IMG/VR virus record: IMGVR_UViG_3300037605_000034
Span: 1-34,164 of that record
Strand: one strand, 5' to 3'
Length of the DNA: 34,164 bases
Source of the DNA: a virus
Taxonomy: Duplodnaviria > Caudoviricetes
Shown here: piece after piece, positions 1,087 through 20,147 of the stretch
How the letters are laid out: the number at the start of each line of letters is the position of its first letter
Numbering within the stretch: the first letter of the stretch is position 1
The notes under the pieces: model-generated
What the model was told of the DNA's origin: nothing
What the model saw: the letters and a program-made list of their open reading frames with translations, nothing else
The model's database searches: none
Program-made: the position numbers and the translations under genes

Positions 1087-1536
1087 GTCGCGAGTCTGTG
1101 ATCATTTTAACATAAACCTGCTTGTTCAACACGGTCCATATCGTTACTGTAAGTATAAGTCTGAGGACTTTTGTGTTGAGCAAGTAGCCGTCGGTATAAC
1201 GATCGATTCGGGAGGTCGCGTATTTTTCTGGGCGAACAACAGAAAACCGAAGCAGCCGATGCCGAGGGTGTTCTTCCGCATTTGGCGGCTCACGAGGCTG
1301 TTCTCACCGAGACGCGTTCGGCGGTGTGTCGAGCGTGCGACCAGAATCGCGGTCTGGACCCGCTATTTGTTCGGTGCCGTTCGTGCGGGTGCCCAGCTCT
1401 TTCGCTGTTGACCGGTTCCTGCCGTTTGCGCAAGTGGCCAAAAATCGAAAGCCCCCCATGAAGTAAATCGACACCTTCTATATGTTTGCGATTTGTAATT
1501 GTTTCTTTGTTACGGCTTTTACTGGTACTTAATATC

Positions 1537-7500: not shown

Positions 7501-8301
7501 CAACACCTGTTCCAAGGCCTAAGTCTTGACGTGACCGGCTTTATCGACAACCGAAACCGCATGCTTGGCACCCTCACCGGGCGATTTGGGCAGAACGACC
7601 CGCTCGACTATCCCGATGGGATGAACAGGTACGCGGCCTACCATGTGATGTTTGGGGGGTTAGATCCAACGGGACTTCAGACTCAAGAAGAGGAAGAGCC
7701 TCCTACCCATAGAAGTCCGAGTAATAGGCAAAATACGCATTCAGGCCATCAAACTGGTCCAAGAACGAATCCTTCCCAACACCAACGACAAGCACCCGGA
7801 AGTCCAGCCACTGGACAAGGAGCAACGAATAATACTAGAGCCAATCCCGGTGGCAATCGCGCTAATCCACCAAGAACAAGGCCTTCAAGCACATCACCTG
7901 CAACAAAATTTAGTATCAAACAGGGTCTTGCTGCACGCGTGGCACTGACGGGATATAACTCATATCTTAAGCAGGCAGGTGCAGTTCAACGAAGGGCACT
8001 TGCAGTAGCGCTGTGTATATATTTGCAACAAAAATGTGCAAATGGCAGTCTCGCAAATGGCAGAAAAAGTTTTAATGTTGCGTTGTCAACCCCTGCTCGT
8101 ATTGTTGGCGTGTATCATGTAAATATTGTCAGGCATAATGGAACTTGGTATGCAAATGCAACACATGTAGAGCAACATAATGTAAGAGTTAAAGCGCTTG
8201 GTTTTATTCCACTTTGGACTTATAAAACTGTGACTAAAACATTTGATGATCTACGCCATAATAATCAAAATAAAAAATGTCCTTTGAATTGCCTTATATA
8301 G
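1537..8301 (+). CDS. rhs: RHS/YD-repeat polymorphic toxin with internal LamG domain and variable C-terminal tip
   Basis: N-terminal NPVxxxTG and GYNW motifs (DUF6531-like); many YD repeats (YEYDDQGR, YEYDSLGRQT, YLYDGLGRL, TYDAWNRV); RHS core (YQPYG...FQG...RNR...GRFGQNDP...DGMNRY...DPTGL). ATG at 1537 preferred over TTG at 1486. Confidence 0.95.
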   Translation: MTTPVNESSGGRGCSPYENDSPCENPECCDDPGETANPVQYSTGTIKLIESDTSANVPGFSHRRVWRNAIVNHQDYDGPNGYNWDIDEWPYLVRRILGSKITINARIGSLQIRFDKVGSEYVPRHSKLGIYQLMHDSSNQIFVLTRRVGRGIDTIQFQDFDQTANPVGLLKKRIDQDGYVTEVTSYTVDGNINGLVTERSGSVFELAYSYHNSGTHLNRLEHVTLNELDQYPSPTTTTSIRRSRYTYYDGSNGYGLANDLKASITQKYEGSSWVDIDVQYYRYYTTDSGIGYEHGLKYAVGPASYAEIVEAGQDPLAGVPTGSDQVPNYADHYFEYDASRRVTKEVARGCASCGTSGGTSSTGDTFSRIKNPDYPSSVASEYRYNIWMTKTVSRNHDGRETIVYTNRVNRVIFEVKRELDTAGARREWCTYYEYDDQGREIMRAEPSAVIGYDEKLPDLVGKQSASSYTYLRSDAGMVHLKTWYTSTTATPTTAGGAEGYAESMSIKKGIQGTEIKTGLYTYFASDNTSGDKTYVVAESIEYPDETNQDSTRFTTSYGYAWYPPTGDKAVMLKERVTTLPAISASQNGDGTSATTRAYFDQDGNLTWTMDERGIITKMVYDDPRDLITQMVEDIGTVSGTGAPSWTPTAGGHFGYTTDYEYDSLGRQTQVLGPEHDADVAGAATTLRTAMYTLHVESPVADQGLGEPPIGDQVRTAQGYATGSPGSYAYTLIDPVAITFADKLGRTLNRVISKRTTGTGRLDEADTFDRADWSRWSMTHYSAKGLLDYQRDYHVIPVQSPDNGLVGVNDDPGVVTTNFNETFHGYDIDTNLRVRTKTPDGTVRRTIYDKMDRVSSTWIGTNDDPDPLPTPDAQWPLTDTTTDSSAATDVSGKGNSATPVSFTSMDFKTGPAGYGNAALSFDGTGYLTAPHILDPAAGAFSASCWVRAEQLVENRMILDQDDGGGIGQRWLYLLTTGQLATAISGTAWATSESLSLDTWYHITLTHDGATTRLYINGQQRGSRSESAAACTSGAMLIGSRKNLNPNIRWDGLMADMAIYPVALTDTQIAQLYQARTRQIGWETWTPDTVGTDLKQVSAVVYDDGNAGGNSNVTQTIQYVDDTTCRVTDYQYDFRDRRIVEDGELTHYTELTYDNLDRQTRTDQRDSTASGNLIARSETFYDNRSRVYQTKTYDVDPATGTVGVALIGNNTYDPASNLVESIAPGAGVVANYTTYDNLGRATLAETGYDDASATNGRVVVESLATTYNAAGQATAATTRRLDAGATPTAQTYRTGYAFSWFDAIGRPIAAADYGALGSAPARPAAAPARSDTVLVTTAAYNDRGEAFSNTDPQGVESRTVYDDLGRTTRAIDNYQASGSGPDVNRTTDTAYTPDGQVKTLTAVVGTSGGADNQVTTYVYGTTISGGAGGQDSALATKNLLFEIVYPDGTLGSDSVRFSYNRQGQLTRRIDQAGTTHAYLYDGLGRLRHDCVTSPVPDDNAAIHLGVRRLTTEYEVRGLPSRLSSCMTAEPNGSGSGGGVANQVLLEYNGFGQLVADMQEHNGPVDASGGGGGSLKVQYTYADGSGGTNQVRPTGVTYPDGRVVGYGYDTAGSINNTLNRIYDLAMDNASVDMSIRYDYLGMSTIVKQSDADENAPTMDLWGGTPGSYAGLDRFDRVTDLHWKDDAVTPNTLVQLEYGYDRDSMPAYRKDTVAHALGAGQDELYSRDGLRRLNDYQRGQLSGSNDSIAPGTATFSQGFTLDEVANWTAFNQDNDGSGTNNLVQTRTNNQANEITGITNSVGGSWGIPTYDAAGNTTRTPSPDAPTDATKDRQMTYDAWNRVVRVTDSNTTFATPELLAYYEYDARGFRILDHTYGSTGKAETATHHYYTNSWQCIEERTVDLTISPLPAAQLSAQYVWGLRYVDDLIQRQRDTTGNGTLDETLYVINDRQFNVVALTDTSQTVVQRMSYQPYGKVEFLTASYGSSTNTYNWQHLFQGLSLDVTGFIDNRNRMLGTLTGRFGQNDPLDYPDGMNRYAAYHVMFGGLDPTGLQTQEEEEPPTHRSPSNRQNTHSGHQTGPRTNPSQHQRQAPGSPATGQGATNNTRANPGGNRANPPRTRPSSTSPATKFSIKQGLAARVALTGYNSYLKQAGAVQRRALAVALCIYLQQKCANGSLANGRKSFNVALSTPARIVGVYHVNIVRHNGTWYANATHVEQHNVRVKALGFIPLWTYKTVTKTFDDLRHNNQNKKCPLNCLI
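4144..4755 (+). other. LamG / concanavalin A-like lectin domain inside the RHS protein
   Basis: AQWPL..D.SGKGN...ALSFDG...FSASCWV...WYHITLTHDG..RLYING...IG...WDG.MADMAIY..ALT..QI.QLY matches the Laminin_G_3 pattern. Confidence 0.9.
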
Positions 8302-8330
8302 GAAACTTTAAACTTCATGGCTACTATATT

Positions 8331-8834
8331 ATGAGATATGTAAAAATAGCCCCCATCGTACTACTAATTCTTGCTGTTGGATTTACAATTGGCCGGATAA
8401 GCAAGAATCAAAAGCCAATTGATTCGGTATTAGATCATGAAAAATTATTTAGTGGGAGTATGAATTCTTCAGAATCGCAGCTATTGCTAGATAAATGGAT
8501 TGAAAATGAGCAAATGAGAATGATAAGTGTTTTGAATTCATTTGCAGACATGCCAGCAACAGACAAAATATCAGATGATATTAAGCTGAATATTTCACAT
8601 GCGATGTTAAGCCATCCTTATTTGACGGAAGGTATAGAAACGCTGTCATTAGCTTCAGCTACCGAACAAAAAATGGAAAATCGAGATGCCTGTCTTCAGG
8701 TAATCGAATACCTGATTTATGAGACTTTGCCAAGTGTGGCAAAGATATTAGAAAATACTATGCAAAATGAGACTGATCGAGGTTTGCTAGAAAGAAAGCA
8801 AGCAGTAGTTGATTCTATCGAAAAAGTTGAGTAA
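8331..8834 (+). CDS. Putative cognate immunity protein (N-terminal signal/TM anchor, helical body)
   Basis: Directly downstream of the toxin tip with the same AT-rich composition; MRYVKIAPIVLLILAVGFTIG signal/TM; ATG at 8331 preferred over the overlapping 8277. Confidence 0.75.
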   Translation: MRYVKIAPIVLLILAVGFTIGRISKNQKPIDSVLDHEKLFSGSMNSSESQLLLDKWIENEQMRMISVLNSFADMPATDKISDDIKLNISHAMLSHPYLTEGIETLSLASATEQKMENRDACLQVIEYLIYETLPSVAKILENTMQNETDRGLLERKQAVVDSIEKVE

Positions 8835-8871
8835 CAAAAAAGACCGCTAAAAGTGTCGGGCGATTGACGTA

Positions 8872-9291
8872 GGAGCCTTTCGATAAATCCCACTTGCATG
8901 CTGCCGCATCTGGCGCTACAAGGGTGTGATGGAACGAGCAAGCAAGGGACTGACGTTGGCCGACGGGCTTTTGGCGGATTTGGGTGGGCCTCGCACGGCT
9001 GGGTTGCTGGCGCGTTTGGACGCGGTGACGCCTTGGGATGAACTCGCTGCGGTGGTCAAGCTGTTGTACCGCAACGACACGGCCAAGGGAGGTCGGCCCA
9101 ACGTGCCGGTCGTCGTCATGCTCAAGGTCACGCTGATGCAGCGTTGGTTCGGCCTAAGTGATCCGGCGATGGAAGAGGCGGTCCTGGATCGGCTTAGCTT
9201 CCGTCGGTTCCTCGGGCTGGGCGCGGCGGACGAGGGCATCGACCATTCGACGATCGCGTTGTTCCGCGAGCGGCTGCACGACGCGGGGCTT
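8872..9291 (+). pseudogene. Truncated IS5-family element: candidate left end plus N-terminal transposase domain (DUF772/InsH-N)
   Basis: From ATG 8929: PW......LY......GRP...MLK...QRWFGLSDPAMEE...DRLSFRRFLGL.....DHSTI..FRERL. Similarity stops at ~9291 with no DDE domain. Candidate terminal repeat GGAGCCTTTCGATAAA at 8872; no partner seen. Confidence 0.85.
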
Positions 9292-9327
9292 CCGCATCCT
9301 CGAATACGCCAACGCAGGCCACGGCTA

Positions 9328-9357
9328 TTGACGTCGGCACTATGCCGCGTAGATACT
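9328..9357 (+). promoter_or_regulatory. Candidate sigma70 promoter for a leaderless transcript starting at ATG 9364
   Basis: TTGACG (9328-9333), 18-nt spacer, GATACT (9352-9357); the A of the ATG lies 7 nt after the -10; CGGCA-CTA-TGCCG palindrome in the spacer. Confidence 0.45.
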
Positions 9358-9363
9358 ATTTCG

Positions 9364-10455
9364 ATGAGTCAGGCATCCAGACGAGCATCAAGCCCAAGCC
9401 CGTATAAGCTACGCATTCACCGCGTGTTTGATCGCACGCCGATCAGCTACCTTGGGTTGCAAACGATTCAAAACGCGGCGGTGATGACGGAACCGATGTA
9501 TGAGTTGATGATGGCTCTGCGTGATAAGCGGCTGGACCAGATGATGCCGAGCTTGCCGCCGATCGAGGATTGGCTATCTCTATATCGGAATCACCGACGG
9601 ATCACGATCGGCTTAGGCGACGCATATCCGTCGCTTTTGGGAGTGGATGGTGAAGCGGCCCAATCGTTACTGGATGACGCCAGAGCAATTAGCCGCGAGT
9701 CGCGACTGAACCGAGACGCGTTGACACGAGCGATCTGCGGTGAGCTAAATCCTAGAAAGCTATCGCAGGTCATACGAATTGCGCACAAGGAGGCGCGACG
9801 AGATTACGCTCGACACTTGAACGAGTTGCGTTGTTTTCTACGGGATGACACTTACGACGAAGAGGAAAGCCGAGAGTTCGGAGTGGCGTTGGAGCAGTCC
9901 GCTGAGATTTATTTTTATGTGCGCGTGGTCTTGCCTGCGATGCTGCTTTGGCAGACGACGCCAACGCAGCTTCTACGCATGTCGAGGGGATCGCGAGGCG
10001 AGCAAGCCCAGGCTGTCGCGATCGAACGATTGTTGAGGCTTGATCCGATGGCCATCTATTTACGAGAAGTCCATCGCTGGGTCAATGTGTCCGACGGCAC
10101 AATCCGTACGCAGCGGTATGATCTTCAGAATCAGTGGCGGACGCAGGGTGTCGACAGCGGCCGAATCAGCAGAAGGCAATTCAAGCAGCTCATGGGGGCA
10201 ATGATTCAATCGACTGCGAGCCGTGTCGGGGCCTATTTCGATCTTGCTAAAGGGTGGCGGAAAACACAGCTGACTGCGGCCGACGTACGAGGTGTGTTTG
10301 ATGCGGTGGCTCAAGATCGGTCCAAGCGAGTGCGTGGTGTCGTTGACAAAGACATCGCGGACATACAAGCGGATTCGTGGAGCAAACAGATACGGCGGTA
10401 TAGAGACTGCTGGAATCAACTCCTACCCGAGGTACCCGGACCGAACGTGTCGTGA
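9364..10455 (+). CDS. Hypothetical protein (363 aa), helical, family not recognised
   Basis: 3' part of the 509-aa ORF; independent ATG at 9364 behind its own promoter-like sequence. Confidence 0.7.
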   Translation: MSQASRRASSPSPYKLRIHRVFDRTPISYLGLQTIQNAAVMTEPMYELMMALRDKRLDQMMPSLPPIEDWLSLYRNHRRITIGLGDAYPSLLGVDGEAAQSLLDDARAISRESRLNRDALTRAICGELNPRKLSQVIRIAHKEARRDYARHLNELRCFLRDDTYDEEESREFGVALEQSAEIYFYVRVVLPAMLLWQTTPTQLLRMSRGSRGEQAQAVAIERLLRLDPMAIYLREVHRWVNVSDGTIRTQRYDLQNQWRTQGVDSGRISRRQFKQLMGAMIQSTASRVGAYFDLAKGWRKTQLTAADVRGVFDAVAQDRSKRVRGVVDKDIADIQADSWSKQIRRYRDCWNQLLPEVPGPNVS

Positions 10456-10488
10456 CTTTTGTCCGGTGCTTGATGCTTGCGATGCAAG

Positions 10489-10779
10489 ATGCTGACATCC
10501 GTGAACACACGGAAAGAAACAGCACGAGTTGCGGCAACATGGGAAATCATCAAGACGCTTGAGCCGTTCGAGTCGAGCCGCATTCCGGCGGCCGACCGGC
10601 GGCGTCTTCTGGCGAGATTGATCGCACATGATCTGGTCGAAACGACTCGCCTTAATACGGTAGAGGCCCAAAGAGGCTCTGAGGACGCGAAGAACGCCGC
10701 CCGGCGGTGCGGAAACGCGCTTGCCGCGTGTTCCTCACCGCTGGGCGGCGAAGATTGCCCGAGTCAGGGGGGCAAGTGA
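10489..10779 (+). CDS. Small hypothetical protein
   Basis: ATG at 10489; its TGA overlaps the GTG of the rep gene (GTGA). Confidence 0.5.
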   Translation: MLTSVNTRKETARVAATWEIIKTLEPFESSRIPAADRRRLLARLIAHDLVETTRLNTVEAQRGSEDAKNAARRCGNALAACSSPLGGEDCPSQGGK

Positions 10780-10793
10780 CTAACAGCCCCCCT
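10766..10793 (+). other. Candidate double-strand origin / nick-site hairpin
   Basis: Perfect 8-bp inverted repeat AGGGGGGC / GCCCCCCT around loop AAGTGACTAACA; CTAACAGCC resembles the pT181-family nick sequence CT^AATAGCC and the CTAA nic of MOB-T origins; overlaps the rep start. Confidence 0.65.
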
Positions 10794-12008
10794 TCTAACG
10801 TGAAATTGTCACCCGATGAGTATGGGAGAGTCCTTGCTTCGGGCATTGACTCACTTGCCGTATCCATCCAGGTGGAGTGGTTGACCGAGATCCTGTTCAC
10901 CAAGCTTGCCGAATTGAAGCGAACCGCCAAGAGCGAGCATGAGGATCAACCGGGCGTCATCGATCCAGGCTTCGGCGCGGCCTCGTGGCTGTTCAGTGTG
11001 TCGCCTTCTGGCACGGATGGCTATGAATGGGTGCTCAAGGGTCGCGAGATGACAATGAAGATCGGAAATTGGAACGAGTTGAAGCAGCGCCCTAGCGTGC
11101 TGGCAGACATCCGGTCAGAGACTTTGTGGGCGCATGGGCCGGATGCGTGTATTCAGCGGCTGCACGATCTGATTCAAGCGATGCAGGGAAAAATCATCGC
11201 ACTCAAGCCGAGCCGGGTTGATCTGTGTGTTGACCTGCTGCTGCGTGAGATTGATTGGGTGCCGAGCCTCTTGGATGGCTTTGTGACGCGTGCCCGTGAT
11301 ATCGATCCGCATTACCAGAGCCGTCAGTTGTCCGGCTTCTCCATCGGTAAGGGTGCTGTTGCGGCTAGGCTCTACGACAAGCCGCGCGAGATCCGGGTGA
11401 AGTCTAAAAAATTCTGGATGTATGACATCTGGGGCATCGAGTCCGAAGCCGAGGATCACCGGGTCATCCGTGTTGAGTTTCAAACGCGGCGGGAGGCGCT
11501 GCATGAGATGGGCATCGAGACCTACCCTGACCTGGCCGAGCAGTTGCCCGCTCTCTGGGCTTACCTGACGCGGAAGTGGCTGAGGGTGGCGATGGATGCC
11601 AGCCTGCACCATACCCAGCAGATCATTCGGCCGTGGTGGCCAATCGTCGAGCGGGGCTTTGATGGCGCCCAGCAGGCCACGCCGATTGTTCGGGAGAAAG
11701 CCATCTCGACGGATCTCAATCGCCACAGTGCTCAACTCTTAGGGCTTGTGTCATCCATCACCGCGCTACAGCGGCAGGGAATCCTCGTCAGCAAAGATGA
11801 ATCACTCGATTTGGATTCGCATGTGGCGGTGATCGTTGACATGGTGAGGAAGAATGCCGCCATAGATGATGATCAGTTCACCGAACGGGTGAAACGTAAG
11901 CAGGTCAAACAACTGCGTGCGGGTGTGGATTTCTCTGATGCCCCTGGCGCGAAACCGGCCGGTGCGGTATCTTCAAGGCGAACAAATCGCCGGAGGCAAT
12001 CGCCATGA
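10776..12008 (+). CDS. Replication initiation factor, Rep_trans-like (rolling-circle initiator/relaxase)
   Basis: Motifs PPSN, SGIDSL, SRVDLCVD, GFSIG....ARLYDK..EI (candidate catalytic Tyr), RVEFQ.RRE.L; GTG start at 10776. Confidence 0.8.
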   Translation: MTNSPPSNVKLSPDEYGRVLASGIDSLAVSIQVEWLTEILFTKLAELKRTAKSEHEDQPGVIDPGFGAASWLFSVSPSGTDGYEWVLKGREMTMKIGNWNELKQRPSVLADIRSETLWAHGPDACIQRLHDLIQAMQGKIIALKPSRVDLCVDLLLREIDWVPSLLDGFVTRARDIDPHYQSRQLSGFSIGKGAVAARLYDKPREIRVKSKKFWMYDIWGIESEAEDHRVIRVEFQTRREALHEMGIETYPDLAEQLPALWAYLTRKWLRVAMDASLHHTQQIIRPWWPIVERGFDGAQQATPIVREKAISTDLNRHSAQLLGLVSSITALQRQGILVSKDESLDLDSHVAVIVDMVRKNAAIDDDQFTERVKRKQVKQLRAGVDFSDAPGAKPAGAVSSRRTNRRRQSP

Positions 12009-13729
12009 CGTCCGCTATTGGTTACATCCGCCGTTCAACTGACAAGCAGGAAGAATCCCTCGATCAGCAGCGGGCCAAGCTCGAAGCTTTCGCCAAGGGC
12101 AAGGGCTGGACGCTCACGGCGATCTACTGCGACGATGCGATCAGTGGTAGTGATATGAAACGGCCGGGCCTGGAACGCCTGATGTCTGACGCAACAAGCC
12201 GCGACGATATCGATGTTGTCCTAGCGTGGGACCGCAACCGGATCGCCAGGCCCAAAGATCCGCTCGATGGCATGATGTTAGAACGTCGATTGTCTGATGC
12301 GGGTAAGCGGGTGGTCTATGCGGGGACCGGGATCGAGACGGATCGCTCGTTCACCTCCGGCCTGATCGGTTACATCGAGCACCACCAGAACGGCGACTAC
12401 CTCCGCAAGCTCTCGCGCGACACGATGCGGGGGCTCGTTGAACGTGCCAAGCGTGGTCTTTGGCCCGGTGGTCCGATCCCCTTCGGCTATGACCGATTGA
12501 TACTCGACGGCGACAAGCCTCGGCGTATTGTTCGGGATATTGAGGATGGCGGGCAGGTCGTGCTTGATGCCGAGTCCGGGCGTGAACTGGAACGGTTGCC
12601 TAAGGGTAAAAGCCACCGCAAGCAGGATCACGAATCGTGCTCGCTAATTCCCTCTGAACCTCAACGGGTCCGAGCATTGCAAGGTATCTTCGAAGACTTC
12701 GCAGCAGGCAAGCCAACCCGTACACTCCGCGATGATCTGAACGCGGCGGGGTTCCGTACTTCTCGCGGTAGTTACTTCACGGTCCAGACGCTGCTGCCGA
12801 TCCTTGAGAATCAAGCCTATCTCGGTAGATGCGTCTACAACCAGCGGACTTTGAGCAAGTGGCACCGATACCGGGATGGGACCAGTGTCGAGCGAGTCGA
12901 TGAGGGTGTCGAGCATCGCGGGTCTGAGGATTGGGTGACCTGTGATGATGCCTGGCCCGCTCTCGTTTCGGATGAACTATTCAAGCAAGTTCAACAGCGG
13001 CGCAAAGATTCACGCGAACGCAACAGCCATCGACGCGGTCCCGCCATGCGTAGCGAGTACCTGCTGACCGGGCTGATGTTCTGCGGCGTCTGTGGCGGCA
13101 AGCTTGGCGGGCATACTTACAAGAACACAAAAGGGATTAAGACGCGTTACTACGTTTGCTCACGCAACTCGTCTGGCCATAAGCACGAATGCCCCAAGCG
13201 GTACACGGTGCCAGCCAAGTTGGTTGAAGGTCATATCCTCGGGCTGATTCGCCAGGACCTTGCCGCTCTGCGTGACGATGACCAGCTGCACCGGATGATC
13301 GCCAAGGAACTGGAACGCCTCGCTGGGGGCCAGTCGGATGCCCGCGATCAGTTAAGCCGACAACTCGCCAGCCTCGACCAGCAGGCCGCGACGGTACGCG
13401 AGCACCTCATGTCGATGGACGCTGATACGGCCAAGGCACTCGGCCTTTATGACAACGCCAAGACTCTATCCGAAGAGTACGCCCAGGTCGCAGAACAACT
13501 CGCCAAGCTGCCTGACACGTGTCCCGCCTTACCGTCGCCTGATCTGATCCGTGAACGTGCTGCAGCTGAGTTTGATCGCCTGGAACACGTTGTGAGTTCT
13601 GCAACGGTGGAAGAAAAGCGAGAGCTAATCGCCTGCTATGTCCAAAAGATAAAGGCTGATCCGGACCTTCAATCGGTCGAGATCAGCCTGTATCCAACTC
13701 TCTTGAGTCAAAAAATAGTGTGGTCGTAA
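12005..13729 (+). CDS. Large serine recombinase (resolvase + recombinase + Zn ribbon + coiled coil)
   Basis: YIRRSTDKQ (catalytic Ser), D..ISG...RPGL, DRNRIAR, GG..PFGY, LLTGL.FCGVCG...YYVC...C, C-terminal coiled coil. Confidence 0.95.
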   Translation: MTSAIGYIRRSTDKQEESLDQQRAKLEAFAKGKGWTLTAIYCDDAISGSDMKRPGLERLMSDATSRDDIDVVLAWDRNRIARPKDPLDGMMLERRLSDAGKRVVYAGTGIETDRSFTSGLIGYIEHHQNGDYLRKLSRDTMRGLVERAKRGLWPGGPIPFGYDRLILDGDKPRRIVRDIEDGGQVVLDAESGRELERLPKGKSHRKQDHESCSLIPSEPQRVRALQGIFEDFAAGKPTRTLRDDLNAAGFRTSRGSYFTVQTLLPILENQAYLGRCVYNQRTLSKWHRYRDGTSVERVDEGVEHRGSEDWVTCDDAWPALVSDELFKQVQQRRKDSRERNSHRRGPAMRSEYLLTGLMFCGVCGGKLGGHTYKNTKGIKTRYYVCSRNSSGHKHECPKRYTVPAKLVEGHILGLIRQDLAALRDDDQLHRMIAKELERLAGGQSDARDQLSRQLASLDQQAATVREHLMSMDADTAKALGLYDNAKTLSEEYAQVAEQLAKLPDTCPALPSPDLIRERAAAEFDRLEHVVSSATVEEKRELIACYVQKIKADPDLQSVEISLYPTLLSQKIVWS

Positions 13730-13909
13730 CCGTTGGCAGTGGCCTGTTTCCACTCCGGCTGCTTACATGCCAACTCCGCCCAGAAAATCCTGCCATCTGG
13801 CTGATATTTATGAATCAGAGACACCAACTTGCACTTTTGTAGTGGGCACCGCTCAATAGGAGCGTCCGGCCACAAGCGGCTATCAACGCAAAATTAGAGG
13901 TGCCAACAC

Positions 13910-14104
13910 ATGCTTAGAGACCCAGACAGGATGACCATGGAAGAACGAGATAAAGAAATTTCACATCTGCTTGGTAAGGGACTTCTCCGATGGCATAGAT
14001 TTAATAAGCGACTCAATAATCGACCGTCCGATGCGATGCCCAGAGGCAGCAAGGCAGAGGATATTGATGCCCCACCGACGAGTAATGACGAGACGAAGCA
14101 TTGA
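13910..14104 (+). CDS. Small hypothetical protein (MTxEERxxEI..LL.KG type)
   Basis: AGAGGTG RBS-like sequence upstream; resembles small genes I recall preceding DUF2924/serine-recombinase modules. Confidence 0.5.
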   Translation: MLRDPDRMTMEERDKEISHLLGKGLLRWHRFNKRLNNRPSDAMPRGSKAEDIDAPPTSNDETKH

Positions 14105-14129
14105 TTTTTTCAATAACGCCACTCCACGT

Positions 14130-15932
14130 CTACGCGTCTGAATGAATCACATCGTCACTTTCGATGGTAAGTACGCCGGCAATTTGCTTGAGACGCGCTT
14201 TAATCAGTTGTTCCCTGGCATCGAAGAACTCTAGAAAGTTTTCTTTTAGCCATAATCGAGGCTCCGCGGGGATCAGGTGGCGATCGAGAAAGCTCTTGTC
14301 TCGGGTCGCGAGCCACTCACCGAACGGCTGATCTGACTTGCCTTGATTCTCATTCGACATAAGGAGGGCCAGATTCCCTAATCGGTTTTTCCTACCAACC
14401 CATTTCCATCGTTGCTCAGACTCAAGGCCAAGGTCCTGCAACGACTTGTCACGGAACATAGCCTGGGGAAAAAGATGGTCGGTATGGTGCGGGATTGTTC
14501 CCCACCCGTTCTCGTCGTAGAGCAGCGTCAATGCCAAGAAGGTTAGCTTTCTGCCGTAATTCAGTTGAAGGACATTTTCAATAGCAAACTGATCGAATGC
14601 CGCAGTTCTGCCTGCCTTCGCGATAACACGGTTGAGATTCTCTGCTGGAAAGTTCGCCTCCGGATCGGGACTCCGTCCCAACTCGGTGCGCATATCACGG
14701 AGTATATTGTCTGAAGCGCCACCAAAAACCTGATTGAGTAATGAGGCGATCAGCCACCGCCTGATCAAGCCTGCGTTGCGAACTTCAAAGGCAGACGTGC
14801 CGCGTAGCGTCAAGCCTGGCCGCCGAAAGAGGTAGTAGATGACCGGAATAAGCGCATTAGCACTCGTCAGGTTGTCTCGGTCAATACCGTATGAGTTTGC
14901 GAGGTCAACGCCGCGCTCGATCGCGGATTTGATCTCAGGCCATGAAGTTTGAATAAGTCCAAGATTCTGATTGTTAAAGTTCTGGACTCGATAGGCCACG
15001 GGCAGGTCTGTCAAGACCAAGCAGGCTTTCATGATGAAGTCTTTGTCGAAGCTGTTATGCCGCGTCAGATCATCATTAATATGGTCCACGAATCCGAAAA
15101 TCTCGTCTCTTGCATTCATCGTGCCCCATTTTGAAGTGACCATCGATAACAAGAGGTCCGACTTGCTGAGCTTGGTTCCGCCCTCGTTGGCACGAACAAA
15201 AATGTCAAGGACACGGTCGTAGTTCTGATCACGCTCAGTGTAATAAGCCACGACCTCATCTTTAAAGATTGCCTCGTAGAGTCGTCTGAGGTTCCTCCTG
15301 AAAGTGCGTATTTGCCCTTTTGTAACAGACTCCGGCAAGCGATCTTCTTCTGCGTCGATGAAATCATCCAAGTTATCCTCGGTCTCGACATCCAAAATAC
15401 GTCCGACCCGAAACCAATATCGACCGTCTTCCTTGGGGGCCGGCTCGGCGAAGAAGTTGAAGTGGTAATAGAGTCCTGCTTCGGTATCCATCGCATCGTC
15501 ATCAGGCTCGATTGGATCTTTGAGAAGATCGAGAAACAATCGCTGCTTGACCCATGCAGATGGATCATCCCACCTTTTGTACTTTTTCTTCACCGTGTAG
15601 AAGCCACGTAGCCCAACAAGTAATGAAGTCAGCCTCTGCTGTCCATCAAGGATCAACGTAAGTCCATGAACACCATCAGTCGTTGCCACTTCGTTATGAC
15701 TGCCGCCTTGCTTGCCGTGTTCGAGGAACTTGTACGCCTCCCAGTTATCTCGATTCTCCGGATCAAGTTCCCAAAACAGAAATGAGCCAATGGGATAGCG
15801 CCGTAAAATTGAGTCGAAGAGTTGGATAATCTGTTCTGGCTTCCAGACGTACTCTCGCTGGATCGCGGGAAGGAAATACTGGTGGTTGAGTTTGGCGACG
15901 GTCGTCGCGACTGATTCTGAGCGATAGCTCAT
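14130..15932 (-). CDS. GmrSD-like type IV restriction protein (DUF262 + DUF1524/HNH-like)
   Basis: LPAIQREYVW, DS..RRYPIGS.L.W, LDGQQRLTSL, F.R.N.GG..LS; C-terminal HTDHLFPQ...NRLGNL.LL...N..KSD; ATG at 15932 preferred. Confidence 0.88.
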   Translation of the reverse strand: MSYRSESVATTVAKLNHQYFLPAIQREYVWKPEQIIQLFDSILRRYPIGSFLFWELDPENRDNWEAYKFLEHGKQGGSHNEVATTDGVHGLTLILDGQQRLTSLLVGLRGFYTVKKKYKRWDDPSAWVKQRLFLDLLKDPIEPDDDAMDTEAGLYYHFNFFAEPAPKEDGRYWFRVGRILDVETEDNLDDFIDAEEDRLPESVTKGQIRTFRRNLRRLYEAIFKDEVVAYYTERDQNYDRVLDIFVRANEGGTKLSKSDLLLSMVTSKWGTMNARDEIFGFVDHINDDLTRHNSFDKDFIMKACLVLTDLPVAYRVQNFNNQNLGLIQTSWPEIKSAIERGVDLANSYGIDRDNLTSANALIPVIYYLFRRPGLTLRGTSAFEVRNAGLIRRWLIASLLNQVFGGASDNILRDMRTELGRSPDPEANFPAENLNRVIAKAGRTAAFDQFAIENVLQLNYGRKLTFLALTLLYDENGWGTIPHHTDHLFPQAMFRDKSLQDLGLESEQRWKWVGRKNRLGNLALLMSNENQGKSDQPFGEWLATRDKSFLDRHLIPAEPRLWLKENFLEFFDAREQLIKARLKQIAGVLTIESDDVIHSDA

Positions 15933-16010
15933 GATGAGAGCCCCTAGAATGTGGCTGGGGATAAGTCGTGATGTACGTGTAGAGGATAACCGGGGCGATA
16001 GGAAGCAAGC

Positions 16011-16046
16011 AAAACGCCCGGCTGGCCGTAAGGCCGAGCCGAGCGC
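16011..16046 (-). terminator. Intrinsic terminator closing the prophage late operon
   Basis: Minus strand GCGCTCGGCT-C-GGCC-TTAC-GGCC-AGCCGGGCGT-TTT: long GC-rich stem with short U tract, ~27 nt after the stop at 16074. Confidence 0.6.
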
Positions 16047-16073
16047 TTCCGGGGGCATGGTTGACACGGAAGT

Positions 16074-16580
16074 TTACCCTGTTGAGTCGTCTGCGTGAAG
16101 CGATCCATCGGGCCACCAACCGAAAGGACAATCTTCCGCAAGATCGCGGGCCTTCTTCTCGAGGATGCATCCACATGTCCCATTGCCCGAACCTCGCATC
16201 GATTCGAGCATGGGACCGCAGGTGTGGAGCTCATTGTCTCGCCAGATGGCATGCCCACCCGGGCATTGCCGACACACATTGAGGCGGGCTTCAACCTGCT
16301 CGTTGCTGGCTCGCTCGATACCGAGGGTGGTTTTGGCCACGCTCTTGCTTGCGTGTGCCACCGCGCTGATGACATTGAGCGCCTGCCGCTTGGGGCTTAG
16401 CTTCAGAGCAGGCGTTGGGTCGTCGCCACGTAGGACCTGCTTCCAGGTCTCGGGCACAAAGCACCAGGCCGTCCCTTCTTCCTTAAGTCGGGCTCGCTTG
16501 GCGCGGTCGATCAGCGTCGGGTCACGGCGACGGCTGACCTGCTCGATGTATTCGATTGGGATTTTGATTTCGTCTGCCAT
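16074..16580 (-). CDS. Phage Cys-rich/Zn-binding protein (DUF6171-like C-terminus)
   Basis: R...CRQCP...TCG...TCGC....K......CP.G.W pattern typical of small phage Cys proteins. Confidence 0.7.
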   Translation of the reverse strand: MADEIKIPIEYIEQVSRRRDPTLIDRAKRARLKEEGTAWCFVPETWKQVLRGDDPTPALKLSPKRQALNVISAVAHASKSVAKTTLGIERASNEQVEARLNVCRQCPGGHAIWRDNELHTCGPMLESMRGSGNGTCGCILEKKARDLAEDCPFGWWPDGSLHADDSTG

Positions 16581-16600
16581 TTAGCCAAGGCAGGACCCTT

Positions 16601-16834
16601 CACGGTTGTTATCCCGCCGGCTCTTTATCCAGCGGTTCTACGGCTCTCGCCGCAGGTCGGACTATCTCTTCCCCCTTCCGGGGGTCGGGCGCTCGTGGAG
16701 GCGATTACTGTCCGGTCTGGACTCGGCCTCTAGTCTCTGCACCTTCCGAAGCGTTCCCGCCTCGGCTTGGCTCAGGGTTGCCCTCGTCTTTACGTTAGGG
16801 GTTTCCCTGAATTCACCCGATATGGCCAATGTTT
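16601..16834 (-). ncRNA. ORF-less group I intron/ribozyme (234 nt)
   Basis: Minus strand: P3 TCGGGTG(16820-14)/CGCCCGA(16691-85); P4 TCAGGG/CCCTGA; P5; P6 GCC/GGT with P6a closed by GGAA; P7 GAGACTA(16737-31)/TAGTCC(16664-59); P7.1 GAGGC/GCCTC; P8 CCCCC-GGAA-GGGGG; J8/7 AAGAGA; P9 CTGCGGC-GAGA-GCCGTAG; P9.1 CCGCTGG/CCGGCGG; P9.0 AC/GT before omega-G at 16601. P, Q, R and S elements resemble trnL/Azoarcus introns. 5' boundary less certain. Confidence 0.92.
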
Positions 16835-16851
16835 AGTTTCCAGTCTCCTTT

Positions 16852-19239
16852 CTATTCACAACAGTTGATATGGACGCCAAGCACATCTGCCCAGCCGTCG
16901 GACTCGGGGTATGCGCTGCCGTCGGCGTACTTGTCGTACGACGACAGCCGAACATGCACGATCAGCGTGAACGAAGTGCCCGGCGCGGGCAGCCCGCTTT
17001 GCACACACCCGTACAGCGTGGCGAGGTCTGGGGTAAACCATGTTGAGCCGGTTTCCCATCCACCGATTCCGCAGGCTTCGTACCAGAGCGGTTCATCATC
17101 AAGAAGCGATCCTTGTGGGCGATCGCATGCGGCGTATTGGTTTGCGTCGTATCCCGATCGGAACGGCCCATTCGTACAGGGGTTGCGGCCGACATGATTG
17201 GTCACGACCGTGACTTGGCCACCGACCTCAGTAAAGCCGGTGCCGTCGTGTGAGATGCAAGGCCAGGTGATCAATCGGTGACAAACGCGGTGGTCGGGCT
17301 TACGTGCCTTGTAGTCTTCGTAGGTTTCGCCGGGCTGGATCGGGATGTGGCCAGCCATGTTGCCCGATACGTTTGCGGCTGCGCAAGAGGCAGACGTGTG
17401 GCACTCGATACAGGGCTCGTCAGGTGGACAATCGTCCATGACTTCGGTCACGTTGACGGGATTGATCGGCCCGCCCGGATCGCCTTCAAAGACCTTCCAC
17501 CAGACACCGCTGTGCTTCACGGCCTTGCCAACGACTGCGGCCAAGTCTGTGCGCGTTGCCCCCCAGATCAATCCGGGGTCATCGCACCTGGCCAGGAAGT
17601 AGATCGGCCCGCATTCGTCGCGTCGGAAGAGACTGCACGCCGCGTTCGAGTTGGGTGCCCGCCTTTCTCTGGCATCAACGATCGCAACGGCTTGTCCAGC
17701 GGCGGGAAGTGTCAGCCTGCCGGGGTGACGCACGCGGTGGCATTTCCCGTCGTGCTTTCCCGCGATGATCTTGGTGTGCCTTGGCAACTGCACCCACTTG
17801 TTGGTGGTGCCTTGGCCGCACTCCCAGAGCCGGAACCAACGCTTGGATGGCGGCGGCGGGTTCTCGCCACCACCGGGCCCTCCACCACCGCCACCTCCAC
17901 CGGGCGGGTTCGGTGGGTTCCAGCCAAAGCATTCCGCGCAAGAGACAAACGCGGGGCCGATACGTTGGAGCACATCTGCATCGGCGGGGATGACGGTGCT
18001 TGCTTCAAACGGATCGATCCAGACGCAATACCCACGGTGCTCAAAGCGTGTGAGCTTGTCGGGGAGCTTGGAGTTGGGCACCCAGGTGTCGCGCCAGTTC
18101 CGGGCATCTTGTCCTGGGCACAAACGAACCGGAACCCCGGATAGGCCGGGGCAGTTGGGATTAAGTTGTCCGCCACAGATGCAGGCGAGGCAGGAATCGA
18201 ATTGGCATCGCGGCGTGATCTGGATGGCATCGGTGGGGATGCGATTCGCCGCAGTATTGAGATCAAGCCTGTGGCACGTCCCGGCGATACGCTGATAGAT
18301 CGTGGTCAGGCCGGGGTAGTCCAGTTGCAACGCATCGATCGCTTCCTTAGTTGCCCAATACGCAATCCCAGTATCCTTCGCGTCTGGGCACAAGACGAAC
18401 GGAACGCCGAGGTTGCAGGTGTTGCATGGCTGATCAACTGTTGGTCTAAGGAGTCTGGCGTCGTCGGGGATGACAGCAGAAGGAGCGGTTTGTTTTTCAT
18501 AGCACCAGCCGCTGTATTCAAATCCATCGGGTGTATCAGGCAGATCTGCTTGTCTGATCCAGACCTCGGGCGCATCGGCCGCATTGGGTAGCGCCTGGTC
18601 GGCCGGGCAAAGCGTTTGCTTAACACCGTGGGTACAGGTCGTGCAGTCGTCTTGAGGATTGCCCAGTCCGATCCAGAAGGCGGGGTCTGGATCAGACACC
18701 ACCGGCCCGGTGGGCACGTTGATGCAGATGCCGCCGTTATCAAAGACACCCTGCTGACCACGCTCGGTGTCGCTGGGTAAGTAGAGGTTGTTCACATCCC
18801 AGCCGCGGGCAATCGCCTTGGGTACGTGATCGGCACAGACGGTCGCCTTGATGCCTTGGGGCTGTTCATCGGGCCATGGCCACGCGCCTCCGCCGTCACC
18901 ACCACCAGCGCCGCCCCCGGCCCCACCCCCCGCGCCACCGCCGCCGGGGAATCCTTCACCTGCATCTTCGCTTGCACTCTCACAGCTGGTGCAGTCGTCC
19001 CATGGGAACGGCCCACGGTAGGCATAGATGCCATCGCCTTGCGGCATGCAGATGCGTTCACCGGCCGGATCGATGGTCCAGCAGTTACGGCTCTCATCGT
19101 CTTGCGTGTCGAGTTCAAAACGCTGAACTGCAGCAGGTAGATCGTCCTCGTGGACAAAGACGCGCAGGTCCGAGGTGTTGTTTGTGCACTTGGTCGCCTC
19201 AACCCAGACGGCACAGTTTTGGCAGCGTGGCCAACTCAT
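16852..19239 (-). CDS. Cys-repeat, Gly-linker protein (795 aa) at the tail-fibre/receptor-binding position
   Basis: ATG at 19239 overlaps the upstream TGA (ATGA); about seven degenerate ~55-65-aa units C...(W/F)...GxC...CxxC; two poly-Gly linkers. Confidence 0.8.
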   Translation of the reverse strand: MSWPRCQNCAVWVEATKCTNNTSDLRVFVHEDDLPAAVQRFELDTQDDESRNCWTIDPAGERICMPQGDGIYAYRGPFPWDDCTSCESASEDAGEGFPGGGGAGGGAGGGAGGGDGGGAWPWPDEQPQGIKATVCADHVPKAIARGWDVNNLYLPSDTERGQQGVFDNGGICINVPTGPVVSDPDPAFWIGLGNPQDDCTTCTHGVKQTLCPADQALPNAADAPEVWIRQADLPDTPDGFEYSGWCYEKQTAPSAVIPDDARLLRPTVDQPCNTCNLGVPFVLCPDAKDTGIAYWATKEAIDALQLDYPGLTTIYQRIAGTCHRLDLNTAANRIPTDAIQITPRCQFDSCLACICGGQLNPNCPGLSGVPVRLCPGQDARNWRDTWVPNSKLPDKLTRFEHRGYCVWIDPFEASTVIPADADVLQRIGPAFVSCAECFGWNPPNPPGGGGGGGGPGGGENPPPPSKRWFRLWECGQGTTNKWVQLPRHTKIIAGKHDGKCHRVRHPGRLTLPAAGQAVAIVDARERRAPNSNAACSLFRRDECGPIYFLARCDDPGLIWGATRTDLAAVVGKAVKHSGVWWKVFEGDPGGPINPVNVTEVMDDCPPDEPCIECHTSASCAAANVSGNMAGHIPIQPGETYEDYKARKPDHRVCHRLITWPCISHDGTGFTEVGGQVTVVTNHVGRNPCTNGPFRSGYDANQYAACDRPQGSLLDDEPLWYEACGIGGWETGSTWFTPDLATLYGCVQSGLPAPGTSFTLIVHVRLSSYDKYADGSAYPESDGWADVLGVHINCCE

Positions 19240-20147
19240 GGGCTGCCTCCCTCGCATGGGCCGTCCGCGTTGTTGATGGCCTGGAAGACATGCTCGACGG
19301 CTTGAGTCTCGCAGTTGATCTCGGGTGTGACCTGAACCACCGCACCCGCCCCGATCGGCTGGATCGAAACCCCTGCGGGCAGTTGGTCGACATTGATGCC
19401 GCAGCCTTGCACGCCCGTCGCGCTGTTGTTCGCTTCGATCGTGTTGTAGGCCGTCCCATTCAATCCGTCTGGAACTGCCGCCCAGGTCCCGGCCTGCTGG
19501 TACTTCATCTGCGTGAACGGGTACGACCACCGGTTATCGCCGATCGAGGTTGCTCCGCCCAGCATGGCCCAGAACCAATCACCCCCGGATGTTGTGCCGA
19601 GATTGACCAGTGCCCAAACGACCGTTGATCCAGATCCACTTCCGGGGTCGTGCCAGATGATTTGGGTGCCGGGCTTGCCGGATTCGAGTTTGGCGGTATC
19701 GCCGTCGATCACGCCGGCGGTCGTATGCGTGTCATCAAGCAGGTCGATCTGCACCGGGCAGATGCCGTTGACGTAGGCCCGGCCAATCCCCGAGGCGGGC
19801 AAGGGGTCGAGCAGGACCGCGAAGTGGCCCGCCGCTGCGTGCTGATCCTCTGTCGGCGTGACGACGGATAGCGCGACCTGACGCAGGAATTCATCAAGGT
19901 GATCGCCGGGCAGGATGATCGGGCCGTTGATCCCGACAACCGCGTTGCGGGCGAGATCAGCCCCGGAATCATTGCGGACCAGGACGATGCCGGTTTGTTT
20001 CGTCCCGGCGGTTGCGGGGATGGGGCCACGGCTGCCGGCCTGCTGCTCGTAGTAGGCGCGTGTCGCATCGACGATCTTGTTCCAATCGGTGGCTGGGATA
20101 CGAAGCGGGCTGCCGCTTTGGACGTGACGCAACTGTGTCATCGTCAC
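19236..20147 (-). CDS. Putative distal tail/tip protein
   Basis: Second gene after tape measure, overlap-coupled on both sides; beta-rich composition. Confidence 0.7.
   Translation of the reverse strand: MTMTQLRHVQSGSPLRIPATDWNKIVDATRAYYEQQAGSRGPIPATAGTKQTGIVLVRNDSGADLARNAVVGINGPIILPGDHLDEFLRQVALSVVTPTEDQHAAAGHFAVLLDPLPASGIGRAYVNGICPVQIDLLDDTHTTAGVIDGDTAKLESGKPGTQIIWHDPGSGSGSTVVWALVNLGTTSGGDWFWAMLGGATSIGDNRWSYPFTQMKYQQAGTWAAVPDGLNGTAYNTIEANNSATGVQGCGINVDQLPAGVSIQPIGAGAVVQVTPEINCETQAVEHVFQAINNADGPCEGGSP

What the first reader, a model, noticed from the sequence alone, without database searches (positions are those of the whole stretch)
16601..16834. Complete ORF-less group I ribozyme in an intergenic gap of a prophage tail operon
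Seen: all catalytic-core helices (P3-P9.1) pair, three GNRA loops, intact G-binding pair in P7 and P9.0 before omega-G; no P2, no homing endonuclease, no tnpA/tnpB. It sits between the stop at 16852 and the ATG at 16580, interrupting no tRNA, rRNA or evident ORF. Established: bacterial and phage group I introns normally interrupt conserved genes; the C. difficile c-di-GMP-II ribozyme is a known UTR exception. Inference: intact pairing suggests activity or recent arrival, as an RNA-processing device or a minimal mobile unit.
Basis: partly seen in the sequence, partly recalled or inferred. Interest (0 to 1): 0.85.

Follow-up and report, generated by a model that had tools for sequence, protein, structure and literature searches.

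The report
Back-to-front group I phage ribozyme
Between two genes of a phage tail region sits an intact self-splicing-type RNA whose guide sequence pairs best with a site behind its catalytic core rather than in front of it, so it likely cuts the message two bases before the next start codon and is predicted to release an 18-base RNA ring, a layout we found in print only as an engineered tool and that here follows an unknown protein domain.

Summary
The group I ribozyme at 16834-16601 (minus strand) is real (Rfam RF00028, 77 bits), ORF-less, intergenic and conserved: 241 of 252 bases match a relative whose flanking genes are 80-84% identical, and no change breaks a pair. The bases in front of the ribozyme vary among close relatives. 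The guide (16829-16823) instead pairs, with the required U.G, to 16587-16581, downstream of omega-G (7 bp; -10.0 versus -2.9 kcal/mol). Ten other lineages share this order, with guide and target changing together. It is the layout of engineered STS/TRIC circularisers. Predicted, not shown: GTP cuts at 16583|16582, two bases before the next AUG, and the 18-base exon closes into a ring. The gene in front ends in an uncharacterised domain of about 170 residues; 3 of 3 genome loci found through that domain alone carry the ribozyme right behind the stop. Activity, the ring and the purpose are untested here. Four literature searches found no natural phage or bacterial case. This scan noted the same family earlier on other DNA (e1-8689258, e1-9799634, e1-10042646 and others).

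The parts
16601..16834 (-). Group I ribozyme without P2, with P7.1/P7.1a and P9.1, from the guide region to omega-G
   Evidence: RF00028 77 bits; helices (and sequence); 5' edge from relatives
16823..16829 (-). Internal guide sequence (UUGGCCA); G16827 is the predicted wobble partner
   Evidence: Invariant in window, L002, L005; pairs with 16587-16581
16659..16737 (-). P7 with the guanosine-binding site (G16735-C16660, bulged A16736), enclosing P7.1, the P3 3' strand and P8
   Evidence: numbering by analogy to the Tetrahymena G264-C311 pair is recalled
16601..16603 (-). P9.0 3' strand (GU) and omega-G at 16601, the predicted 3' splice site
   Evidence: Sequence; same motif spacing before the exon in gene-interrupting introns L140-L144
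16583..16600 (-). 18-nt internal exon, predicted circle; begins with a 4-bp hairpin and ends in the P1 target; also nearly complementary to P6/P6a in this lineage
   Evidence: identical in L002
16581..16587 (-). Downstream P1 target UGGCU|AA; predicted cut between U16583 and A16582, two bases before the AUG
   Evidence: 7 bp with U.G; same layout in 10 other lineages
16748..16768 (-). P6/P6a stretch that can alternatively pair with almost the whole exon (possible off-state, this lineage only)
   Evidence: Duplex -28.4 kcal/mol, p 0.002 against 500 shuffles; not seen in 9 other lineages
16835..16851 (-). Shine-Dalgarno-like AAAGGAG behind the stop plus a variable 8-10-nt spacer; has no start codon of its own
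16852..17430 (-). C-terminal partner domain (about residues 700-892) of the 892-aa ORF; uncharacterised family, no known fold matched
16852..19530 (-). 892-aa Cys/Pro/Gly-rich ORF, third ORF behind the tape-measure gene; tail role inferred from position only
   Evidence: no PHROG or Pfam match
16074..16580 (-). 168-aa Cys-rich ORF of Phycisphaerae phages and prophages, whose start lies 2 nt behind the predicted cut

Best explanation
This is an intact group I ribozyme whose guide sequence pairs best with a site downstream of its omega-G, so its splice sites likely lie in reverse order: it is predicted to use GTP to cut the phage late transcript at 16583|16582 and then to close the 18-base exon 16600-16583 into a ring. 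Step 1 (inferred from group I chemistry): the guide docks on UGGCU|AA, free guanosine attacks after the U, and the downstream RNA leaves with a new 5' end, G plus two bases before the AUG of the 168-aa gene. Step 2 (inferred, less certain): the freed 3'-OH of U16583 attacks omega-G|A16600, giving the ring and leaving the upstream message ending in the whole ribozyme. The likely role is to divide the transcript between the partner-domain gene and the next gene and so reset translation of the latter. The partner domain is inferred to act with the RNA, but no contact is shown. Shown: core, downstream complementarity, conservation, co-variation across lineages, linkage to the domain. Not shown: any reaction, any product, any effect on expression.
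For: (1) Guide pairs with the downstream site by 7 bp including U.G, -10.0 kcal/mol, versus 4 bp and -2.9 upstream. (2) The upstream spacer differs in window, L002 and L005, while guide, exon and target are invariant where sequenced. (3) Ribozyme plus exon is 241 of 252 identical to L002; flanking codons are 84% and 80%, third positions 62% and 61%; none of the 11 changes breaks a pair, and one pair in P8 changes on both sides. Two P7.1 pairs change on both sides in a contig of run X3. (4) In 10 of 10 candidate lineages the best U.G helix is downstream rather than upstream; cognate guide-target pairs beat shuffled assignments (mean -8.4 versus -6.5, p 0.011), upstream ones do not (p 0.53). (5) Found through the protein alone: 3 of 3 genome loci with the partner domain have the ribozyme right behind the stop and their best helix downstream; L269 uses a wholly different guide and target (AUUGACGG with CCGUU|GAU, 8 bp, 75 nt after P7 against 76 here). 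(6) Conventional P2-less introns from the same scan show the opposite pattern, a 7-10 bp helix 8-13 nt upstream (L191, L180, L183, L219, L244, L256, L235). (7) The same order of parts circularises RNA in engineered form (PMC11394858 section 4; PMC12270912 passage).
Against: The window's downstream helix alone is not significant against shuffles (p 0.07). Eight of the 10 candidates were picked by eye for having such a helix, so p 0.011 is optimistic; the cognate target ranked first for only 2 of 10 guides because most share a GGCC core. The method gave one strong false downstream match (L205, p 0.03, anchor in P2). In L267, L268 and L269 an upstream helix comes close (-6.6 versus -7.1, -8.3 versus -12.8, -6.3 versus -7.2). 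Exon hairpins are not individually significant (p 0.08-0.56). In the minimum-energy fold the exon pairs with P6/P6a, which would block the active fold. The distance from cut to AUG varies (1, 2, 2, 2, 5, 7 and 14 nt in seven lineages; none nearby in four), so one fixed effect on translation is not general. An RNA-library contig of a relative (X19) runs uncut through the site; it may be precursor or DNA.
Confidence: 0.72

Rival explanations
1. First step only: the ribozyme acts as a GTP-dependent endonuclease at 16583|16582 and the ring does not form, or forms poorly because 18 nt is too short.
For: The exon is only 18 nt; its circular form has no favourable fold (+1.6 kcal/mol); P10 is only 2 bp here and absent in L194 (sequence).
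Against: P9.0 and omega-G are kept; exons of 15-25 nt begin with a hairpin within 3 nt of omega-G in 11 of 11 folds and in L269, which would bring the two sites together. Earlier scan notes report junction reads for relatives (unchecked here).
Confidence: 0.1
2. Two-site switch like the C. difficile ribozyme: the upstream site (16835|16834) and the downstream site are both used; cutting at both and re-ligating the upstream exon to the released RNA would place the orphan Shine-Dalgarno 12 nt before the AUG.
For: AAAGGAG has no start codon of its own; removing 16834-16583 gives a 12-nt spacing; both sites are followed by AA; the exon-P6a pairing could be a second state; L268 has a good in-gene upstream helix.
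Against: No aptamer in the window. L002 has C, not U, at the upstream site. L194, L200, L196, L212 and L177 have no such Shine-Dalgarno between stop and guide. The re-ligation is not a standard product.
Confidence: 0.08
3. Conventional intron in a non-coding gap, spliced from 16835 to 16600.
For: A local hairpin C-G, U.G, A-U, A-U can form at 16836-16826 and the 3' exon starts with AA, allowing a 2-bp P10.
Against: That hairpin is not the predicted fold of the stretch and is broken in L002 and weakened in L005. The product leaves 30 nt (or 23 nt from the alternative U) between Shine-Dalgarno and AUG and fuses no reading frames.
Confidence: 0.05
4. Inactive or purely structural RNA carried along with the tail-gene cassette.
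For: No activity data; uncut RNA-library contig X19; inhibitory exon-P6a pairing.
Against: All catalytic residues are kept, conservation exceeds the flanking genes, and the substrate helix co-varies across lineages whose partner domains are only about 20-35% identical.
Confidence: 0.05

Closest known systems
Engineered end-to-end self-targeting and splicing (STS) and TRIC circularisers (PMC11394858 parts 1-2 of 4 read; PMC12270912 passages; PMC10415121 search listing only)
   Same: Intact ribozyme first, guide at its 5' end, exon behind omega-G ending in the U target; product is a circular exon.
   Different: Natural, in phage DNA, kept by selection; cargo only 15-25 nt in the members seen; flanked by coding genes; linked to a protein domain.
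Natural circularly permuted (CP) group II ribozymes (Roth et al. 2021, PMC8637638, passages read)
   Same: Splice sites in reverse order, short linker excised as a small circle (15-86 nt there), ORF-less, often beside a partner ORF, role unknown.
   Different: Group I chemistry (free guanosine, no branch), so the transcript is predicted to be severed rather than left branched; the break lies in the P1 loop and the core order is normal.
ND5-717 back-splicing group I intron of corallimorpharian mitochondria (PMC6545197, abstract read)
   Same: Natural group I intron acting from a permuted precursor and giving a circular exon RNA.
   Different: There the intron is split in P8 around the genome and restores a protein-coding gene; here the ribozyme is contiguous, the exon is 18 nt and no gene is restored.
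C. difficile c-di-GMP-II allosteric group I ribozyme (PMC3984707, PMC9481103, PMC9495366 passages; Lee 2010 not held)
   Same: ORF-less group I ribozyme before a start codon that affects the ribosome-binding site. An alternative GTP-attack site a few bases before the start codon is recalled from Lee 2010 and Chen 2011, not read here.
   Different: No aptamer; the downstream site appears to be the main one; found in unrelated phages.
Conventional phage group I introns of IA type (for example in Bacillus phage DNA polymerase genes, 74-75% identity over 58% of the query)
   Same: Core sequence and P7.1 insertion; the IA label and the P9.1 comparison are recalled, not tested with subgroup models.
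   Different: They interrupt genes and have a local upstream P1; this one interrupts none.

Membership tests
Group I ribozyme (RF00028) | Covariance-model match above the gathering score | tested here: met
   77 bits against 50
Group I ribozyme (RF00028) | P3-P9 core, G-binding pair in P7, P9.0 and omega-G | tested here: met
   and sequence
Group I ribozyme (RF00028) | Guanosine-dependent transesterification | not testable with these tools
   Needs in vitro assay
Conventional cis-splicing group I intron | Conserved P1 with U.G formed with the upstream exon | tested here: not met
   4 bp, -2.9 kcal/mol, U replaced by C in L002, -2 pair lost in L002 and L005
Conventional cis-splicing group I intron | Interrupts a gene that splicing restores | tested here: not met
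   No tRNA, no other Rfam family, no fused frame
Mobile intron with homing endonuclease, or IStron | Endonuclease ORF inside, or tnpA/tnpB in the 3' part | tested here: not met
   234 nt without a credible ORF; flanking ORFs match no nuclease family
C. difficile-type allosteric ribozyme | c-di-GMP-II aptamer directly upstream | tested here: not met
   No such Rfam match in the window
STS/TRIC-type reverse-order group I ribozyme | Guide pairs with U.G to a site downstream of omega-G | tested here: met
   single-locus p 0.07, cross-lineage p 0.011 with selection bias
STS/TRIC-type reverse-order group I ribozyme | Circular exon product | not testable with these tools
   Only assembled contigs could be laid; an 18-nt ring cannot show in them
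CP group II ribozyme | Group II domains in the order D5-D6-D1-D4 | tested here: not met
   Group I core; no group II match. It works like it in outcome but is not a member
Subgroup IA2 or IA3 | Match to subgroup covariance models | not testable with these tools
   Only RF00028 is held; P7.1 and P9.1 are present
Partner domain as ATP-grasp or RNA-ligase fold | Significant structural match | tested here: inconclusive
   Best Z 4.5 over 73 residues, rmsd 3.1; no Foldseek match at E 0.001

The most novel reading that the evidence does not exclude
A widespread phage module of an unknown protein domain plus a reverse-order group I ribozyme: the ribozyme severs the late transcript, gives the next gene a fresh triphosphate 5' end and makes one of the smallest natural RNA circles, and the domain, often fused to a virion protein, binds the ring or controls the ribozyme. 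In this lineage the exon also switches the ribozyme off by pairing with P6a.
Probability: 0.3. Interest if true: 0.9.

Novelty: new variant of a known kind. Interest (0 to 1): 0.74.

Why it matters
Group I ribozymes in phages are known as gene-interrupting passengers. A natural family with reversed splice sites would be the group I counterpart of CP group II ribozymes, whose purpose is open. This one is small (252 nt), has an exact predicted cut and product, and a linked protein, so the question of what back-splicing ribozymes are for becomes directly testable. It would also show that the STS/TRIC circularisation design exists in nature and supply compact natural ribozymes for making RNA circles. 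Annotation that assumes an upstream P1 would misplace these elements.

Tried and rejected
Read-through or frame fusion across the element: no conserved frame. A later omega-G at 16586 or 16585 that would build a ribosome-binding site: P9.0 and the 3' motif of gene-interrupting relatives point to 16601. An intron-free close allele: none found. The pattern scans of genome and metagenome collections for the 5' end gave 0 hits. None of 20 more distant loci of the 168-aa gene has a group I match at gathering score, and several of these genes are directly coupled to a different upstream gene, so they do not define an empty site. Loose pattern scan: 3 of 119 loci had a core, 2 of them already known. 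Five Phycisphaeraceae genomes had no RF00028 match. DNA search of 401 class genomes gave 1 hit, in a tRNA-like context. Domain search of 401 phylum-level genomes gave 0; one search repeated one search's 141 genomes. Cultured phages and plasmids: no record covering 80% of the ribozyme or three relatives and no tblastn match to the domain. Partner domain: no Pfam family for the domain in 17 proteins, no PDB sequence match, no Atlas hit, no significant fold match; this is not evidence of a new fold. RNA runs X19 and X21 hold short contigs of relatives without any joint; X21 ends at 16596 in one study only; no conclusion drawn. Promoter and terminator scan: nothing above chance. I first read L147's first ribozyme as conventional; its downstream helix is the stronger. 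Model R1 was built but not used.

Full report
Observation. The window is a linear virus record of 34,164 bases with lambda-like portal, capsid-protease, tail tube and tape-measure genes on the minus strand. Relatives of the 168-aa gene lie mostly in Phycisphaeraceae genomes (11 of 13 loci), which points to a planctomycete host. RF00028 matches at 16879->16638, 77 bits, the only Rfam match at gathering score. There is no tRNA, no credible internal ORF and no P2.

Conservation. Two related phage contigs (L002, L005) carry the ribozyme at the same place, as do contigs of runs X1, X2, X3, X5 and X9 (X1 may be the source sample). Against L002, 241 of 252 bases from 16834 to 16583 are identical, whereas the flanking 597 and 450 coding bases are 84% and 80% identical and third codon positions 62% and 61%. 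None of the 11 changes breaks a pair. This indicates selection on the fold, not a recent or decaying insertion.

Where the substrate is. The guide UUGGCCA (16829-16823) instead pairs with UGGCUAA (16587-16581), 7 bp with U16583.G16827, duplex -10.0 against -2.9 kcal/mol upstream. That site is 18 nt downstream of omega-G and 2 nt before the AUG. On its own it is not significant (p 0.07). Conventional splicing would leave 30 or 23 nt between Shine-Dalgarno and AUG and fuse no frames. I recorded this reading, before seeing earlier scan notes on it.

Other lineages. A scan for P2-less 5' ends gave 84 viral loci. With one genome locus added, 85 were examined and 24 distinct cores found. I tested 24 sequences: the window, L002 and 22 of those cores; the copy of L005 is cut off before the target. 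Eight had their best U.G helix downstream and no local upstream one (window, L002, L194, L200, L196, L212, L177, L185 = first ribozyme of L147). Seven had a conventional 7-10 bp helix 8-13 nt upstream (L191, L180, L183, L219, L244, L256, L235). In eight the anchor fell in a P2 hairpin and the test says nothing about P1 (L241, L234, L216, L178, L184, L205, L214, L223; L205 gave a false downstream match), and L213 was unclear. In the reversed group the ribozyme starts 0-30 nt behind a stop codon, and guide and target change together: GGCCAC with GUGGCU (L194), GGCCCC with GGGGU|C (L200), GGCCAGU with ACUGGU|C (L196), UGCCCGU with GUGGGU|A (second ribozyme of L147). Over 10 lineages, cognate pairs averaged -8.4 kcal/mol against -6.5 for shuffled assignments (p 0.011), with no upstream signal (p 0.53); ten controls showed the reverse (upstream p 1e-5, downstream p 0.99), but three of them measure P2, not P1. 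Eight of the ten candidates were chosen by eye, and the cognate target ranked first for only 2 of 10 guides.

Partner domain. Earlier scan notes mentioned a partner protein. I tested this: the last 170-190 residues of the 892-aa ORF are homologous to the ORFs in front of L194, L212 and L177 (E 1e-8 to 1e-11) and to the ORF two genes in front of L196; L200 is weak (E 0.03) and L147 has none. A profile found 41 cluster representatives, mostly 200-250 aa stand-alone proteins and some fusions. The domain folds confidently (pLDDT 89) but matched no family or fold. Searching genomes with the protein profile alone gave 2 of 401 class-level genomes, 0 of 401 phylum-level and 3 of 141 family-level, one of them new. 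All 3 loci have a group I match right behind the stop (52.4, 46 and 44.7 bits; two are under the cut-off of 50 but have E about 1e-9), and in all 3 the best helix is downstream, though narrowly in L267 and L269. L269 is the clearest case: a different guide, AUUGACGG, pairs over 8 bp with CCGUU|GAU at the same distance from P7, with an AUG 1 nt behind the cut. L267's downstream gene is a relative of the 168-aa gene (E 8e-9). None of the conventional introns had the domain within the roughly 1.2 kb fetched on each side.

Mechanism. By established group I chemistry the U.G pair in P1 marks the site of guanosine attack, and the freed 3'-OH then attacks after omega-G. With the sites in this order the predicted products are the downstream RNA with an added 5' G, an 18-nt ring, and the upstream message ending in the ribozyme. 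The exons of all members are 15-25 nt and fold into a hairpin that starts within 3 nt of omega-G (11 of 11; also L269), though no hairpin is significant by energy. The AUG follows the cut by 1-14 nt in seven lineages and is not nearby in four, so dividing the transcript is general but the effect on the next gene may not be. In this lineage alone the exon is nearly complementary to P6/P6a (p 0.002), a possible off-state or a local duplication. No reaction or product was observed; only assembled contigs could be laid.

Known systems. The order of parts is that of engineered STS and TRIC circularisers (PMC11394858, parts 1-2 of 4 read; PMC12270912, passages). Natural parallels are CP group II ribozymes (PMC8637638, passages) and the mitochondrial ND5-717 intron, described as the first natural back-splicing group I intron (PMC6545197, abstract). 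A 2023 list of natural permuted RNAs names no group I case (PMC10085705, passages). The C. difficile ribozyme needs an aptamer that is absent here (PMC3984707, PMC9481103, PMC9495366, passages); its alternative GTP site is recalled, since the original paper is not held. Searches found no natural phage or bacterial reverse-order group I ribozyme; searches were on intergenic and UTR introns. Passages of PMC11835236, PMC4615214 and two 2026 preprints did not mention one; the preprints' supplements are closed and could hold such clusters, and subscription papers are not searched.

Verdict. Real and conserved. It is a group I ribozyme but not a conventional intron; it works like STS/TRIC and CP group II systems. 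New variant of a known kind, interest 0.74. My odds: reversed P1 about 0.85, cleavage in vivo about 0.75, ring about 0.6, a functional tie to the partner domain about 0.4. The scan has noted this family on other DNA; those notes are leads, not independent proof.

Noticed in passing
window 16785-16794: The P5 loop is a variable site: 71 other letters replace these 8 in contigs of runs X3 and X9, and other extensions appear in X2 and X19.
   Followed up: no
run X3, record matching window 16653-16834: A diverged copy of the ribozyme with different flanks, again just behind an AAAGGAGG motif; its 3' part could not be read.
   Followed up: partly
L147:1879-2430: Two reverse-order ribozymes in tandem behind a 228-aa gene and facing a T4-like portal gene, without the partner domain; 8 near-identical records.
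   Followed up: partly
L268 (G322:C3): Besides the downstream P1 there is an 8-bp upstream helix inside the end of the partner gene; possible two-site member.
   Followed up: partly
L194 (527-kb record): The same domain-plus-ribozyme module occurs in a jumbo phage record with the same UGGCU|AAAUG target as the window.
   Followed up: partly
window 1486-16067: Left part holds a 2271-aa laminin-G protein, a DUF772 transposase, an endonuclease-like ORF, a large serine recombinase and a GmrSD-type restriction gene directly behind the 168-aa gene.
   Followed up: no
L159:1478-1541 and L165:1816-1879: Fluoride riboswitch directly behind a relative of the 168-aa gene.
   Followed up: no
L013:1337-1931; L010, L012, L014, L019: A group I intron overlapping a phage tmRNA gene, and four loci with two group I introns each in what looks like one gene.
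   Followed up: no
P0062: A partner-domain protein whose first 48 residues match ketopantoate reductase (ApbA); insertion into a host gene or a mis-assembly.
   Followed up: no
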